Below are positions 1-64,000 of a stretch of DNA of 64,000 bases, in pieces (positions within the stretch are counted from its first letter, which is position 1; each line of letters begins with the position of its first letter). Source of the DNA: Syntrophales bacterium (GTDB lineage: Bacteria; Desulfobacterota; Syntrophia; Syntrophales; PHBD01); contig OY764159.1 in the NCBI GenBank assembly GCA_963668175.1, positions 1,760,001 through 1,824,000 of the forward strand, in the 5' to 3' direction. Made by a program: the position numbers.

Positions 1-3000
1 GGGGTGGTTCAAGGACGAGATCGTCCCGGTGGAGATCAAGACGAAGAAGGGGATATCCGTCTTCGATACGGACGAGCATCCGCAGGCGAACACGTCGATG
101 GAGGCGTTGGCGAAGCTGAAGCCCGCCTTCAAGAAGGACGGGACGGTGACGGCGGGGAACGCCTCCGGACTGAACGACGCGGGATCGGCCCTGATCATGA
201 TGTCGGCGGAAGCGGCGAAGGCGAAGGGCTTCAAGCCTGTCGCCAGGGTCGTCGCCTCCTCCCCCGGTTCGGTGGAGCCCCGGATCATGGGCATGGGTGT
301 GGTTCCCGCGGTGCGTAACGCCCTGAAGTTCGCGGGGCTTTCGCAGGACCGGATCGATTACTGGGAGCTGAACGAGGCGTTTGCGGCGCAGGTTTTGGGA
401 GTGAACCGCGAGTTGAAGATCGGCCTGGACCGCGTGAATGCCGTGGGCTCGGGGATCGGCCTGGGTCATCCGGTGGGTGCGACGGGCGCGCGTCTCATCA
501 TCACCATGATCAACGAGATGAAGCGCCGGGGCGTGAGATACGGCTGCGCCTCCCTGTGCGCAAGCGGCGGACCCGCCCATGCGTTTATCGTCGAATCTAT
601 CTAACGCAGCGATTGCGAAACCATATAATGGAGAAGAGAATATGAATTTTCAAGTATCTGAAGAACACGAAGCCTTAAGGACCATGGCCCATAAATTTTC
701 TGAACAGGAGATATTGCCCGTTATCCTGGAATACGATGAGAAAGGGGAGTTTCCCTGGCCCATCGTCAATAAAATGCACGAAGTCGGCCTGCTGACCGCC
801 GGTGTGCCGGAAGAGTATGGTGGACCCGGTATCGACATGCTGGGCCAGATTATCGTCACGGAAGAGATCGCCTACGGCTGCGGCGGCTGCGCCGCGACCA
901 TGGCGGCAAGCAGCCTGCTGTCGCCTGAGCCGGTCGTCGTCGGCGGCACCCCGGAACAGAAGAAGATGTACTTCGACGTCCTGAACGAAGGCAAGCTGGG
1001 CGCCTTCTGCCTCACCGAACCGGGAGCGGGTTCCGATGTCGCGGGGCTTTCGATGACGGCCAAGCGCGACGGCGACTACTACATACTGAACGGCACGAAA
1101 CAGTTCATTACGAACGGCGGCGTAGCCGACATATACACTGTCTTCGCCACCACGGACAAGAACCTCCGTTTCAAGGGAATCGTCGGCTTCATCGTTGACC
1201 GCAAAACTCCCGGCGTCTCCGTCGGACCGGAAGAAAAGAAGATGGGCATCTGCACCTCCGATACCCGCCAGGTGATCTTTGAGGATGTACGCGTACCCGT
1301 TGCCAACCGGCTCGGCGAGGAGGGCAAGGGGTTCGGCGTCTGCATGCAGGCCCTCGACCTCTCCCGCCCCTCCGTGGCGGCGGAGGCCATCGGCATCGCC
1401 CTCCGGGCCTTCGAGATTGCGGTGAAGTATTCCCAGGAGAGGACGGCCTTCGGGCAACCCATCGCAAGCCTCCAGGCTATCCGTTTTATGCTTGCGGACA
1501 TGGCCATGAGCATCGAAGCGGCGAGACTTCTCACTTATAAGGCCTGCTGCCTCGCCATGGCCAAACAGCCGTTCAATTATATGGCATCTTATGCCAAGTG
1601 CTTCGCCGCCGATATGGCGATGAAGGTCACGACCGACGTTGTCCAGATCCTGGGCGGCTACGGATATCTGAGGGAATATGGCGCGGAAAAATGCATGCGG
1701 GATGCGAAAGTCATGCAGATCTACGAAGGCACGAACCAGATCCAGCGCGTCGTGATCGCCAACCACATCTACAAATAGAAGCGGCCGGAGGCACATATGA
1801 ACTTCAAGGAAGAGTATCAGCGAAAGCTGGTAACAGCGGAGGAAGCGGTCAAGGCCGTGAAATCCGGCGATTGGGTGGATTACGGGTCCTTCGCCGGCCA
1901 GACGGTCCTTCTTGACCGGGCCCTGGCCAAACGCCGGGACGAACTGACCGACGTAAAACTCCGCGGCACGCTGCGAATGGTGATGCCGGAAGTTGTCAGG
2001 GAGGACCCGACGACGGAACACTTCTGCTTCAACAGCACCCACTTCAGCGGGCTGGAACGGAAGCTGGGCGACGACAATTTATGCTGGTATCTGCCGGTCC
2101 TGTATCATGAACAACCTCGGTATTACAGGGAAAACATCCCAACGGATGTCCTTCTCCTTACCGTGGCGCCTATGGACGAATGGGGTTATTTCAATTTCGG
2201 ACCCCAGGTCTCGTGCACCATGGCCCTGTGTGAGTCGGCAAAAACGATCATCTGCGAAGTGAATCCGAATGTTCCCCGTTGCGGAGGGGGTTCGCAGGAA
2301 GCCATCCACATTTCGCAGGTCGACTACATCGTCGAGGCAGATTGGCCCCTCAGCGAGTTGCCGAACATCATACCCAGCGATACGGACCGGCAGATTGCCG
2401 GTCTCATTATGGAACACATCGAGGACGGCAGTTGCCTTCAACTCGGCATCGGCGGCATGCCCAACGCCGTCGGCGCCATGATTGCCGAATCGAACCTGAA
2501 GGACCTGGGCATCCATACGGAGATGTTCGTCGACTCCTTTGTCCAAATGGTCGAATCGGGGCGCGTCACAGGAGCGAAGAAAAACGTCGACAAGTACAAG
2601 ATCGTCTGTACCTTCGCCCTGGGCTCGAAGAAAACTTATGATTTCGTTAACAACAATCCACGGATTGCGTTTTATCCGGTGGACTACACCAACGACCCTT
2701 TCATCATAGCTCAGAACGATAAGGTCGTGGCCATCAATAACTGCGTAGAAGTCGATCTTACAGGACAGGTCTGTTCCGAGTCATCGGGCGTAAGGCAAAT
2801 CAGCGGCACGGGCGGACAGTTCGACTTTACCTACGGAGCCTATCGCTCCCGTGGAGGGAAGTCGTTCCTCTGTCTCGCATCGACTTACACCAAGAAAGGA
2901 GGAATGAAATCCCGGATAAAGCCGGTTCTCACGACCGGCGCCACCGTAACCGTGCCAAGAACGGCTGTGCAGTACCTGGTTACTGAGTACGGCGCCGTTA

Positions 3001-63000: not shown

Positions 63001-64000
63001 CTATAAACTGGCGAAAATAGTTCTTCACCGGCAATGGTGCCTAAATGCACCGGTATTCAATTCGGGCATGCGCCCGAAGGTTGTTCCGGTACTGACTTTT
63101 CGCGGGAAAAGCGATCCCAACGGGTGTGGAAACAATCCCGACGGGGGGAATGAAATTTCGTAATTATCCATTTGTTTCAGACTATACGGCGGTTTCCCCT
63201 GCATCGGTCCAGGCAGCCGGTCGGCGTGGCATTGATGTTGCAACATATACGGCATACGCAAAATCGAATAAGAATCGGCTTTATAAGATGGCCTGATATC
63301 AGTAGGGCGAAAAGATCTTATAGGGTGAAAAGATCGTTCTAACCATATGAAGGAGGTTCTACTATGAGGTTGCAACTGAAGTGGTTTTGGGTTCCTGTGA
63401 CGTTGGCTTTCCTGGGTTTGATGGTCTTGCCTGCCAATGCGGCTCCCCCCATCAAAATAGGTGTCGTCAGCCCCATGTCGGGAAACTACGGTGATCACGG
63501 CGCCCTGGAAAGAGCGGGTATGCAGATGGCTTTGGACGAGTACGGCGGAAAGATCCTCGGACGTACCATCCAACTAGTGACCGCGGACGATGAGACGAAC
63601 CCGGATGTCGCCGCGAGACGCGCAAGGAGACTCATCGAGGTTGACGGTGTGAAGTTCCTTCTCGGCGGCGTGAGCAGCTCCGTCGGAATCGCCGTCGGCG
63701 CCGTCGCAGAAGAGAAGAAGGTTCTATACATCAACACCAACGGAAATTCGGACCAGCTCAGCGGCGAATACGCCCGCCATCACGTATTCACCAGCGCCCC
63801 GAATATGGCCATTCTGGTGAGGGGCGGCGCTAAATATGTCGCCGAGAATCTCGGGAAGAAATGGTTTTTCATCACCCATGATTATTCCTGGGGCTGGTCG
63901 GGCACCAAGTGGGCGCGCGCATCCATGAAGGAGTTCGGCTGCAAGGAAGTGGGCGAGATCAAGGTTCCCATGGGAACGCGCGATTTCAGCTCTCAATTGC

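What a model noticed while it worked through the whole genome (the two positions that open the first line are those of the whole stretch)
1..64000. Five integrase-less catabolic operon cassettes stacked at tRNA-Lys(CTT), each closed by a half-tRNA att repeat
Downstream of tRNA-Lys(CTT) (1752425-1752500), five direct repeats of the tRNA's 3' half (anticodon loop to the CCA end, plus a terminator hairpin) recur at 1755237, 1767328, 1777514, 1792664 and 1833242. Each is preceded by the same ~50-nt non-tRNA arm. They cut the 81 kb into five modules, each a self-contained catabolic unit (regulator, transporter, acyl-CoA or 2-oxoacid enzymes) with no integrase or transposase. Boldest reading: these are serially captured mobile 'catabolic cassettes' inserted by a trans-acting recombinase, an integron-like way of stacking substrate pathways at one tRNA gene. 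Two more copies of the arm plus half-tRNA flank the rep gene of a Rep3 plasmid-like island (3468 [...]
Evidence so far: Discovery: all-vs-all BLASTN of intergenic regions found the family. BLASTN of one copy against the genome gives 8 places at 77-87% identity over 75-141 nt, all in the orientation of the tRNA. Alignment: MAFFT shows identity from the anticodon loop (CTCTTAATCAG) through GGTTCGATCCC...CACCA, plus a shared upstream arm (GTGGTCATTTTATGTCGT...AATAGCGCACATTA) that is absent from the true tRNA. Modules: sizes are 2.8, 12.3, 10.3, 15.3 and 40.7 kb with 2, 10, 9, 12 and 38 genes. None holds a Phage_integrase, Resolvase or rve Pfam domain. Specificity: the arm/anticodon-loop junction (a 25-mer, up to 3 mismatches) occurs 5 times here and in 1 of 338 other Syntrophales genomes. 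The finding spans contig positions 1752425 to 1833351; this window holds only 1760001 to 1824000 of it. [...]
(Added by a program. Inside this text positions count along the whole contig: contig position 1,760,001 is position 1 of the stretch shown here. "Call 12" and the like, gene names such as g00115 and contig names such as C1 are that model's own, and its searches are not shown. The text may have been shortened before it was handed on; [...] marks where a part breaks off. The agent that wrote the report below was given it as the finding of a first reader that could run no searches.)

Follow-up and report, generated by a model that had tools for sequence, protein, structure and literature searches.

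The report
Integrase-less island array at tRNA-Lys
Downstream of one lysine tRNA gene, several blocks of metabolic genes are each bounded by a leftover copy of a phage-type integration site, so this is a stack of old, now immobile-looking genomic islands of a kind already described in other bacteria.

Summary
tRNA-Lys(CTT) at contig 1752425-1752500 is followed by five co-oriented repeats. Each repeat is a ~72-nt non-tRNA arm, the tRNA from the anticodon loop to CCA, and a hairpin. Three lie in the window, at 7330, 17505 and 32661. I found a sixth, heavily decayed copy 10 kb beyond r5.

The repeat is an att site. Similarity to the tRNA starts at the anticodon loop. The arm has two conserved boxes around a variable spacer. 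The same arm abuts a tyrosine integrase gene in another genome (G339), and a prophage with a related integrase sits at the identical tRNA in a second one (G152).

This genome has no integrase of that family, not even a remnant.

Several results favour old serial integrations that have since decayed (cis-mobilizable-element-like accretion):
- Mismatches to the tRNA rise with distance from it (0, 1, 6, 6, 5 of 45).
- A truncated gene abuts arm r1.
- Read depth is even and no excision joint is listed.
- Some cargo is 97-98% identical to other loci in the same genome.

They argue against an active integron-like capture system. Dehalococcoides ssrA islands are a published precedent. I rate it a new member of a known kind, of moderate interest.

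The parts
1..7329 (+). Module 2, right-hand part (begins at contig 1755364, outside the window). Genes: acyl-CoA dehydrogenase, 4-hydroxybutyrate-type CoA-transferase, MFS transporter, Usp, abfD-like HpaB-family gene (5607-7127).
   Evidence: Pfam. The abfD-like gene is 97-98% identical to three other copies in the genome.
7330..7401 (+). r2 arm (P arm): distal box ATGTGGTTATTTTATGTCGT at -57, variable spacer, proximal box AAATAGCGCACATTA.
7402..7446 (+). r2 core: anticodon loop to CCA of tRNA-Lys(CTT), 1 mismatch of 45 to the tRNA.
7455..7477 (+). r2 hairpin GGGGTTGCGAAATTCGCAACCCC, the start of module 3's P' side.
7478..17504 (+). Module 3: PAS-LuxR regulator, CoA-transferase A/B, enoyl-CoA hydratase, 3-hydroxyacyl-CoA dehydrogenase, thiolase, acyl-CoA dehydrogenase, MFS. 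All on the + strand.
   Evidence: Pfam. A 72-74% nt paralogous cluster lies at 1672102-1677597.
17505..17576 (+). r3 arm.
17577..17621 (+). r3 core: half-tRNA with a mutated loop (CTCTTGACCAG), 6 mismatches of 45.
17628..17654 (+). r3 hairpin followed by a T run; the best terminator-like site in window 7000-18200.
17655..32660 (+). Module 4: 2-oxoacid dehydrogenase E1a/E1b/E2/E3, LipB, LipA, ketol-acid reductoisomerase, two MFS transporters, a methyltransferase, an HTH-cupin regulator and a sigma-54 activator. All on the + strand.
   Evidence: Pfam. No DNA match in 8 family relatives except the sigma-54 AAA+ domain and two short stretches of about 130-200 nt. E2 has no match at E<=1e-40 in the family, and 43% is the best identity among 40 relatives.
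32661..32732 (+). r4 arm.
32733..32777 (+). r4 core: half-tRNA with a mutated loop (CGCTTAATCGG), 6 mismatches of 45.
32786..32818 (+). r4 hairpin (AAAGGC...GCCTTT).
32819..64000 (.). Module 5, left-hand 31 kb of about 40 kb, mixed strands: nitrilase-family hydrolase, two GntR regulators, a DHODH-like gene, two 2-oxoacid:ferredoxin oxidoreductases, an amino-acid dehydrogenase, D-Glu cyclase, a branched-chain ABC transporter, OAD beta, MaoC, a sigma-54 activator and a CoA-transferase. It ends at r5 (contig 1833186-1833304), outside the window.
   Evidence: Pfam.

Best explanation
The repeats are the right-hand junctions (element P arm, core, then the displaced 3' half of the tRNA) left by successive site-specific integrations into the anticodon loop of tRNA-Lys(CTT). 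The enzyme was a phage-type tyrosine integrase.

Each incoming circle carried an attP with these parts:
- a distal box about 57 nt upstream of the crossover;
- a core-proximal box, GCGCACATTA;
- its own copy of the tRNA from the anticodon loop to CCA;
- a terminator hairpin.

Integration rebuilt a working tRNA from the element's copy and pushed the previous 3' half downstream. The newest element therefore lies next to the tRNA and the oldest lies farthest away.

The integrase genes and any transfer genes are gone, and the older cores are mutated. The array is now a fixed, decaying stack of integrase-less islands, like cis-mobilizable elements formed by accretion. Its cargo has since been reshuffled with the rest of the chromosome by duplication or gene conversion.

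Shown: the anatomy of the repeats, the link between this att type and an integrase family, the absence of that integrase here, the decay gradient, and the truncation at r1. Inferred: the order of events, that each module entered separately, and how the integrases were lost.
For: 1. **Crossover point.** Identity to the tRNA starts at the loop in all five copies. The 3470791 copy breaks off right after CTCTTAATCAG.
2. **Mosaic conservation typical of protein-binding sites.** Mean pairwise identity over 10 pairs is 0.28 outside the arm, 0.68 in the distal box region, 0.47 in the spacer, 0.84 in the proximal box, 0.88 in the core, and 0.30-0.34 beyond CCA. The distal box sits at -57 in r1, r2, r3 and r5 and at -56 in pB.
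3. **Same att type with integrases elsewhere.**
 - In G152 the tRNA-Lys(CTT) is 99% identical. A 399-aa integrase lies beside it and a half-tRNA preceded by GCACATTA lies 38 kb away. The cargo between them is a prophage with capsid and portal genes.
 - In G339 a 374-aa integrase, 40% identical to the G152 one, ends about 100 nt upstream of the loop. Both boxes follow it, then that host's own version of the half-tRNA.
4. **The integrase is absent here.** The best tblastn hits genome-wide are Xer-like, 25-31% identity. Inside the array nothing scores better than E = 0.27.
5. **Decay gradient.** Mismatches to the tRNA 3' part are 0, 1, 6, 6 and 5 of 45 for r1 to r5. The sixth copy keeps 29 of 44.
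6. **Truncation at r1.** ABC ATPase homology stops at residue 79 of 241, at 1755229, which is the outer edge of arm r1.
7. **Against simple local duplication.** Homology between copies is confined to about -72 to +142.
8. **Empty-site comparison.** The nearest relative, G046, keeps the MCP gene (72% aa) and an identical tRNA, but none of the array follows.
9. **Precedent.** Dehalococcoides ssrA islands are tandem, each bounded by a repeat with a conserved non-ssrA motif upstream, and 15 lack an integration module (passages read). The definition of cis-mobilizable elements and of accretion is in passages read.
Against: - No integrase remnant survives in any of six elements. In the G339 layout the integrase ends within about 25 nt of where arm similarity begins, so six clean losses that each kept the full arm are not what random deletion predicts.
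- Modules 2-5 have the genome's G+C.
- Module 2 and module 3 genes look native to the family. There are 97-98% identical copies elsewhere in the genome, and single genes match relatives at 73-77% nt. Import is therefore not demonstrated for them.
- The decay gradient is stepwise, not monotonic: r5 has fewer mismatches than r3 and r4.
- G046's right flank is rearranged, so it is not a clean empty site.
- Only two integrase-bearing examples of this att type were found. The genome-collection scan returned 5 loci, 2 of them real. Two metagenome scans and one viral scan returned 0.
Confidence: 0.65

Rival explanations
1. The modules are integrase-free cassettes by design. Operons, and a Rep3 mini-replicon, each carry one attP and are inserted and excised by a helper integrase supplied in trans, for example by a temperate phage. 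This would be an operon-scale analogue of an integron, anchored at a tRNA gene.
For: - Six of six arm-bearing units (r1-r5 and pB) keep a full arm but have no integrase or remnant.
- A 2.4-kb segment holding only a Rep3 gene with its iterons lies between a half-tRNA junction and an arm junction at 3468358 and 3470791. It would circularise into a complete arm-core-half-tRNA site.
- All 29 Pfam-supported genes of modules 2-4 read toward the closing arm and hairpin.
- r1 and r2 still have intact cores.
Against: - No helper integrase exists in this genome or in the 8 other genomes of the family.
- The cores of r3-r5 are mutated.
- Module 1 is a truncated remnant.
- Depth is even across the region and no att x att joint is listed.
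- The cassettes carry their own regulators.
- The arms show no single-strand fold signal.
- Cargo is shared with other chromosomal loci at 97-98%.
Confidence: 0.15
2. The array did not form here element by element. It arrived as one composite, or grew by ectopic recombination between att copies and by specialised-transduction-like pick-up of DNA next to tRNA-Lys in related donors.
For: - The half-tRNAs of r3 and r5 share the same three differences from the resident tRNA. That fits a different source tRNA better than independent decay.
- Modules 2 and 3 have homologous left ends (PAS-LuxR genes at 68% nt) and genes typical of the family.
- The review passages read say that transfer of whole composites cannot be excluded.
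Against: - r1 and r2 are much younger than r3-r5, which argues against a single arrival.
- No donor or second instance of the array was found. The junction occurs in 1 of 338 other genomes of the order, and in 0 of two metagenome scans.
Confidence: 0.12
3. The repeat is not an att relic but a functional tRNA-like RNA or terminator module reused at operon ends.
For: - Each copy sits after the last gene of an operon and ends in a hairpin.
- The r3 hairpin is the best terminator-like site in its region.
- The two arm boxes are an imperfect inverted repeat of each other.
Against: - 0 of 22 predicted pairs show compensatory change.
- Fold z-scores for 7 arms range from -1.5 to +1.7.
- ARAGORN calls none of the copies.
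- The same unit is linked to integrases in two other genomes.
Confidence: 0.03

Closest known systems
Dehalococcoides ssrA genomic islands (McMurdie et al. 2011, PMC3146451; passages read)
   Same: - Multiple tandem islands within 100 kb downstream of one tRNA-like gene.
- Each is bounded by a direct repeat of the gene's 3' part.
- A conserved motif that is not part of the gene lies just upstream of each repeat.
- The cargo is energy-metabolism operons.
- 15 of the islands have no integration module and were proposed as cis-mobilizable elements.
- A similar, apparently fixed gene-rich region lies beyond the last repeat.
   Different: - There the target is tmRNA at the T loop, the repeat is 20 bp, and the recombinase is a large serine integrase present in 16 islands.
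- Here the target is the tRNA-Lys anticodon loop and the repeat is 45 nt plus a ~72-nt arm.
- The linked enzyme family is a tyrosine integrase, and no element in the genome keeps it.
Cis-mobilizable elements (CIMEs) and tandem accretion in streptococcal ICE/IME systems (definition read in PMC5704250; Pavlovic 2004 and Bellanger 2011 seen only in its reference list)
   Same: The elements have lost their integration and transfer genes but keep attL and attR. They stack at the 3' end of a target gene, including a tRNA-Lys gene, by repeated site-specific integration.
   Different: - CIMEs are defined by being mobilised in cis by a functional neighbouring ICE or IME. No functional neighbour exists here.
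- Derivation from an ICE or IME is not shown.
- The one canonical relative whose cargo I annotated is a prophage.
Integrons
   Same: Serial stacking of gene units at one site, newest next to the attachment point. Each unit is closed by a recombination site and the units themselves carry no recombinase.
   Different: - There is no intI, attI or Pc.
- The units are whole regulated operons of 10-40 kb.
- The sites are duplex attP-type sites with arm boxes, not folded attC hairpins.
SCC composite islands with ccr-less pseudo-SCC elements at orfX in staphylococci (recalled, not checked in any call)
   Same: Recombinase-less cassettes stacked in tandem at one chromosomal site, each bounded by repeats of the integration site. 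They depend on a recombinase supplied by another element.
   Different: Serine recombinases (CcrAB/CcrC), a protein-gene target, resistance cargo, and demonstrated mobility.

Membership tests
tRNA-targeting integrative element (tyrosine integrase, anticodon-loop crossover) | A direct repeat of the tRNA from the crossover point to the 3' end, co-oriented and downstream of the intact gene. | tested here: met
   Five copies plus one decayed copy, all on the + strand.
tRNA-targeting integrative element (tyrosine integrase, anticodon-loop crossover) | An element-encoded integrase next to one att end. | tested here: not met
   None in the array. It is met in the comparators G152 and G339.
tRNA-targeting integrative element (tyrosine integrase, anticodon-loop crossover) | Excision to a circle and an empty site. 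| tested here: inconclusive
   Contigs of two runs show even depth and no listed att x att joint. The raw-read run does not hold the organism, and 22 joints were not shown.
Cis-mobilizable element (CIME) / accretion array | attL and attR are retained while the integration and transfer genes are absent. | tested here: met
   att units are present at every boundary, though the cores of r3-r5 are mutated. No recombinase or relaxase domain appeared in the Pfam scans.
Cis-mobilizable element (CIME) / accretion array | Derived by decay of an ICE or IME and mobilisable by a functional neighbour that shares the att site. | tested here: not met
   No functional neighbour and no cognate integrase in the genome. 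Ancestry from an ICE or IME cannot be tested here.
Integron | An intI gene with an adjacent attI and promoter. | tested here: not met
   No tyrosine recombinase lies within 1752-1844 kb.
Integron | attC sites that fold as imperfect hairpins. | tested here: not met
   Single-strand DNA fold z-scores of -1.5 to +1.7 for 7 arms. No covariation.
Integron | Mostly promoterless cassettes of one gene. | tested here: not met
   The modules are 2.8-40 kb and carry their own regulators.

The most novel reading that the evidence does not exclude
The catabolic modules and the Rep3 mini-replicon are members of one family of att-tagged, integrase-free units. A single helper integrase, probably phage-borne and absent from this strain, inserts and excises them at tRNA-Lys(CTT). 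That would let syntrophs stack and exchange whole regulated substrate pathways the way integrons stack single genes.
Probability: 0.13. Interest if true: 0.7.

Novelty: new member of a known kind. Interest (0 to 1): 0.35.

Why it matters
The region shows how a syntrophic bacterium may have widened its substrate range. Modules for 4-hydroxybutyrate/crotonate and short-chain acyl-CoA use, and a 2-oxoacid dehydrogenase complex not found in the 8 family relatives, sit at one integration hotspot.

It also gives a clean dissection of an att site: a distal box, a proximal box, a crossover in the anticodon loop, and an element-borne half-tRNA with its terminator. The integrase family that goes with this site was found only in other genomes.

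If the integrase-free units were shown to move with a helper integrase, this would be an operon-scale cassette system. As it stands, it extends the known pattern of accreted, decaying islands to Syntrophales.

Tried and rejected
- **Local duplication of one island end: rejected.** Homology between copies is confined to about -72 to +142. The only larger shared block, the abfD-like gene upstream of r2 and r5, is 97.4% identical over 1474 nt and is separated from att units that are only 81% alike.
- **attC-like or RNA structure: rejected.** No covariation and no fold signal.
- **Hidden recombinase among unannotated ORFs: not found.** Eighteen leftover ORFs of the array were scanned at E<=0.01. 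Three gave a match: thiolase, Peripla_BP_6 and a weak Creatinase_N. A 166-aa ORF to the right of the 3470791 copy has a sub-threshold AlpA match (E = 0.001, 19.3 bits against a cut-off of 21).
- **Wider instances of the att junction.**
  - The genome-collection scan gave 5 loci, 2 of them real and 3 chance hits inside coding sequence.
  - Two metagenome scans gave 0.
  - One viral scan gave 0.
  - The viral-contig search with the G339 integrase gave 0 relatives.
  - The phage-record search with the G152 integrase gave nothing closer than 33% over half its length.
- **Reads.**
  - Of 10 runs listed, four were laid.
  - The raw-read run of the same species label holds only a conserved tRNA stretch.
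  - The two organism-A runs are contigs that break at the repeats.
  - The organism-B run holds short low-depth pieces, several with 0-2 other letters.
  - None of this bears on excision.
- **Ancestral flank.** G046's sequence downstream of its tRNA matches none of the six P' sides beyond the hairpin, so the ancestral flank could not be identified.
- **Earlier notes of this scan:** nothing relevant.
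Full report
**Observation**

The window is contig positions 1760001-1824000 of a single 4,567,304-bp contig. ARAGORN finds no tRNA in the window. It finds tRNA-Lys(CTT) at 1752425-1752500 on the + strand, the only CTT copy among 51 genes.

BLASTN of the three window copies against the genome recovers five co-oriented repeats: 1755237 (r1), 1767328 (r2, window 7328), 1777514 (r3, window 17514), 1792664 (r4, window 32664) and 1833242 (r5). Identity is 78-84% over 105-141 nt, with E from 1e-15 to 5e-39. Two part-copies lie at 3468358 and 3470791.

The alignment shows that similarity to the real tRNA begins at the anticodon loop (CTCTTAATCAG) and runs to CCA. All copies share an upstream arm that the tRNA lacks.

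It gives 5 hits in this genome (r1-r4 and the 3470841 copy, not r5), 1 hit in 338 other genomes of the order, and 0 hits for the reversed control.

A profile search adds a sixth, heavily decayed, co-oriented copy at 1843381-1843470 (E = 0.009). Its T arm, loop and proximal box are still recognisable.

**Anatomy of the repeat**

Measured from the first base of the loop, mean pairwise identity among r1-r5 (10 pairs, ungapped) is:

| Segment | Mean identity |
|---|---|
| -100 to -73 (outside the arm) | 0.28 |
| -72 to -40 (distal box region, ATGTGGTCATTTTATGTCGT) | 0.68 |
| -39 to -16 (spacer) | 0.47 |
| -15 to -1 (proximal box, AAATAGCGCACATTA) | 0.84 |
| 0 to 44 (loop to CCA) | 0.88 |
| Beyond CCA | 0.30-0.34 |

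- The distal box sits at -57 in r1, r2, r3 and r5, and at -56 in the 3470791 copy.
- A hairpin follows each copy. The one after r3 is the best terminator-like site in window 7000-18200.
- The two boxes are an imperfect inverted repeat of each other. However, 0 of 22 predicted pairs covary, and single-strand DNA folds of 7 arms give z-scores from -1.5 to +1.7. A folded attC-like or RNA reading therefore has no support.
- Two conserved boxes around a free spacer next to a core is what a duplex attP arm looks like. This comparison is my inference from general knowledge of tyrosine-integrase att sites.

**Link to an integrase family**

*G152.* The one other genome of the order with the junction, G152, has a tRNA-Lys(CTT) that is 99% identical. 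A 399-aa Phage_integrase protein lies 83 nt from the tRNA's 3' end. A half-tRNA preceded by GCACATTA lies 38 kb away. The DNA between them encodes a phage capsid, a head-tail connector and a C5 methylase, so it is a prophage.

*G339.* A scan of the genome collection for the proximal box plus loop gave 5 loci, 2 of them real. The second real one is L015/G339, whose record title is an uncultured Desulfosarcina MAG.
- It has a 374-aa integrase, 40% identical to the G152 enzyme.
- Its stop codon lies about 100 nt upstream of the loop.
- It is followed by GGTTGTCATTTTAT, then GCACATTA, then that host's own variant of the half-tRNA.

The arm in the present genome thus corresponds to the short spacer between an integrase gene and the core in a canonical element.

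**No integrase here**

- Six-frame searches place the six Phage_integrase matches at 219910, 527073, 534345, 1435670, 2977331 and 3387664. The two Resolvase matches are at 230782 and 3457235. None is in the array.
- Pfam scans of 95, 84 and 23 ORFs (the 23 include five from the 3.47 Mb island) found no recombinase or transposase domain in 1752-1844 kb.
- tblastn with the G152 and G339 integrases gives nothing better than E = 0.27 inside the array or the 3.47 Mb island. Genome-wide it finds only Xer-like genes at 25-31% identity.
- The 8 other genomes of the family likewise show only Xer-level matches, 31-38%.

**Gene content**

- *Module 1* (2.8 kb, G+C 0.498) holds a protein kinase gene and an ABC ATPase fragment, both on the minus strand.
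- *Module 2* holds a PAS-LuxR regulator, 3-hydroxyacyl-CoA dehydrogenase, enoyl-CoA hydratase, thiolase, acyl-CoA dehydrogenase, a 4-hydroxybutyrate-type CoA-transferase, MFS, Usp and an abfD-like HpaB-family gene.
- *Module 3* holds a PAS-LuxR regulator, CoA-transferase A/B, hydratase, dehydrogenase, thiolase, acyl-CoA dehydrogenase and MFS.
- *Module 4* holds E1a/E1b/E2/E3 of a 2-oxoacid dehydrogenase, LipB, LipA, ketol-acid reductoisomerase, two MFS transporters, a methyltransferase, an HTH-cupin regulator and a sigma-54 activator.
- *Module 5* (40 kb) is mixed in strand and content.

All 29 Pfam-supported genes of modules 2-4 are on the + strand. The DNA beyond r5 is also rich in acyl-CoA genes, and it ends at the decayed sixth copy.

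**Signs of age and decay**

- Mismatches to the tRNA's 45-nt 3' part are 0, 1, 6, 6 and 5 for r1 to r5. The loops of r3-r5 each have 2 changes. The sixth copy keeps 29 of 44 positions.
- The ABC ATPase homology in module 1 stops at residue 79 of 241, at 1755229. That is exactly the outer edge of arm r1, so this junction is a deletion or recombination breakpoint.
- In contigs of two runs of the same organism, depth is even (about 42-49 and 13-20) and the contigs simply break at the repeats. None of the 15 listed joints connects two att copies (22 more were not shown). The raw-read run does not hold the organism.

**Is the cargo foreign?**

The answer is mixed.

*Module 4 looks acquired.*
- Its DNA matches the 8 family relatives only in the generic sigma-54 AAA+ domain and two short stretches of about 130-200 nt.
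- Its E2 has no match at E<=1e-40 in the family.
- The best E2 identity among 40 relatives is 43%.

*Modules 2, 3 and 5 are entangled with the chromosome.*
- The 2.9-kb dehydrogenase-hydratase-thiolase block of module 2 is 97.9% and 97.6% identical to copies at 3496235 and 3556318.
- Four abfD-like genes are 97-98% identical. Two of them are the last genes before r2 and r5. The att units next to those two are only 81% alike.
- Module 3 has a 72-74% nt paralogous cluster at 1672102-1677597. Its single genes match family relatives at 73-77% nt.
- G+C of modules 2-5 (0.54-0.57) equals the genome value of 0.558.

**Comparative site**

G046, in the same family, keeps the MCP gene (72% aa identity) and an identical tRNA. 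It then continues into genes that lie near 3.0 Mb in this genome. The array is therefore absent there, but the flank is rearranged and does not give a clean empty site. Its downstream sequence matches none of the P' sides.

**The second locus**

A 14-kb low-G+C island at 3457-3472 kb carries:
- a small serine recombinase;
- a 1370-aa HTH protein;
- ThiF/E1-N, JAB and Metal_CEHH genes;
- a SET-domain gene;
- a Rep3 initiator with three 22-bp iterons;
- a BrnT/BrnA pair.

The copy at 3468358 has a diverged arm, the loop, the half-tRNA and a hairpin. The copy at 3470791 has a full arm and the loop, followed by unrelated DNA. The 2.4 kb between them holds only the rep gene and its iterons, and it would circularise into a complete att unit.

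This fits an integrase-free replicon that recombined through the same site. It also fixes the crossover within or just after the loop. The Rep protein is at most 37% identical to plasmid initiators in PLSDB.

**Interpretation**

The best reading (confidence 0.65) is serial integration into the tRNA-Lys anticodon loop by phage-type tyrosine integrases, with the newest element next to the tRNA. Loss of the integrases, mutation of the older cores and reshuffling of cargo followed. The result is a fixed stack of integrase-less islands.

The main difficulty is that six units keep full arms without any integrase remnant. That keeps alive the bolder reading of integrase-free cassettes served in trans (0.15).

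Two other readings get less weight. Arrival of the array as a composite, or growth by ectopic or transduction-like events, gets 0.12. A functional-RNA reading gets 0.03.

**Comparison with what is known**

The closest published case is the Dehalococcoides ssrA islands. These are tandem islands within 100 kb of ssrA, each bounded by a repeat with a conserved 15-bp non-ssrA motif upstream. Fifteen of them lack an integration module and were proposed as cis-mobilizable elements (passages read). The definition of such elements and of accretion is from passages in PMC5704250. Pavlovic 2004 and Bellanger 2011 were seen only in that paper's reference list.

The classification of tRNA integration sites by sublocation, and the SCC/pseudo-SCC analogy, are recalled and were not checked. 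I did not search the literature for this organism specifically. One paper search was run.

**Verdict**

The feature is real and well delimited. It is a new member of a known kind, and its interest is moderate.

Noticed in passing
contig 1843381-1843470 (L002:19381-19470), outside the window: A sixth, heavily decayed att copy, co-oriented and 10 kb beyond r5. It would bound a further module rich in acyl-CoA genes (hydratase, SDR, acyl-CoA dehydrogenase, MFS, CoA-transferase III, MaoC, AMP-binding).
   Followed up: partly
window 5607-7127; contig 1831562-1833043, 3499120-3500583, 3559203-3560655: Four abfD-like (HpaB-family) genes are 97-98% identical. Three copies of a 2.9-kb dehydrogenase-hydratase-thiolase block are about 98% identical (1757729, 3496235, 3556318). 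This indicates recent duplication or gene conversion of core butyrate/crotonate genes.
   Followed up: partly
L003:1235-16200 (contig 3457-3472 kb): A low-G+C island (0.37-0.52 against about 0.60 in the flanks). It carries a serine recombinase, a 1370-aa HTH protein, a ThiF/E1-N + JAB + Metal_CEHH gene set (ubiquitin-like conjugation type), a SET-domain gene, Rep3 with iterons, four TGTCATC..GATGAC palindromes and a BrnT/BrnA pair.
   Followed up: partly
window 17948-29260: A complete 2-oxoacid dehydrogenase complex with its own LipA/LipB and a ketol-acid reductoisomerase. E2 has no match at E<=1e-40 in the 8 other genomes of the family. A 42% identical paralogue lies at 3538237.
   Followed up: partly
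contig 1672102-1677597 (L032): A paralogous cluster (CoA-transferase A/B, hydratase, acyl-CoA dehydrogenase, MFS) at 70-74% nt identity to module 3. The profile search found no att copy near it.
   Followed up: no
contig 3480158-3480240: ARAGORN calls an 83-nt tRNA-Val(cac), longer than the genome's other tRNA-Val genes (75-76 nt), about 8 kb from the low-G+C island.
   Followed up: no
L014, about 120 nt upstream of the G152 half-tRNA-Lys: A second tRNA 3'-end-like fragment (T arm and acceptor of a different tRNA) lies inside the prophage end. It may be another att relic.
   Followed up: no
L018:12080-12400 (G339): The motif ATGACAAGGT occurs on both sides of the core. In the P arm it is part of the palindrome ATGACAAGGTTGTCAT. 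These are candidate arm-type binding sites for that integrase.
   Followed up: no
window 50027-51703: A 559-aa ORF upstream of a 2-oxoacid:ferredoxin oxidoreductase operon has only a weak Creatinase_N match (E = 2.7e-5).
   Followed up: no
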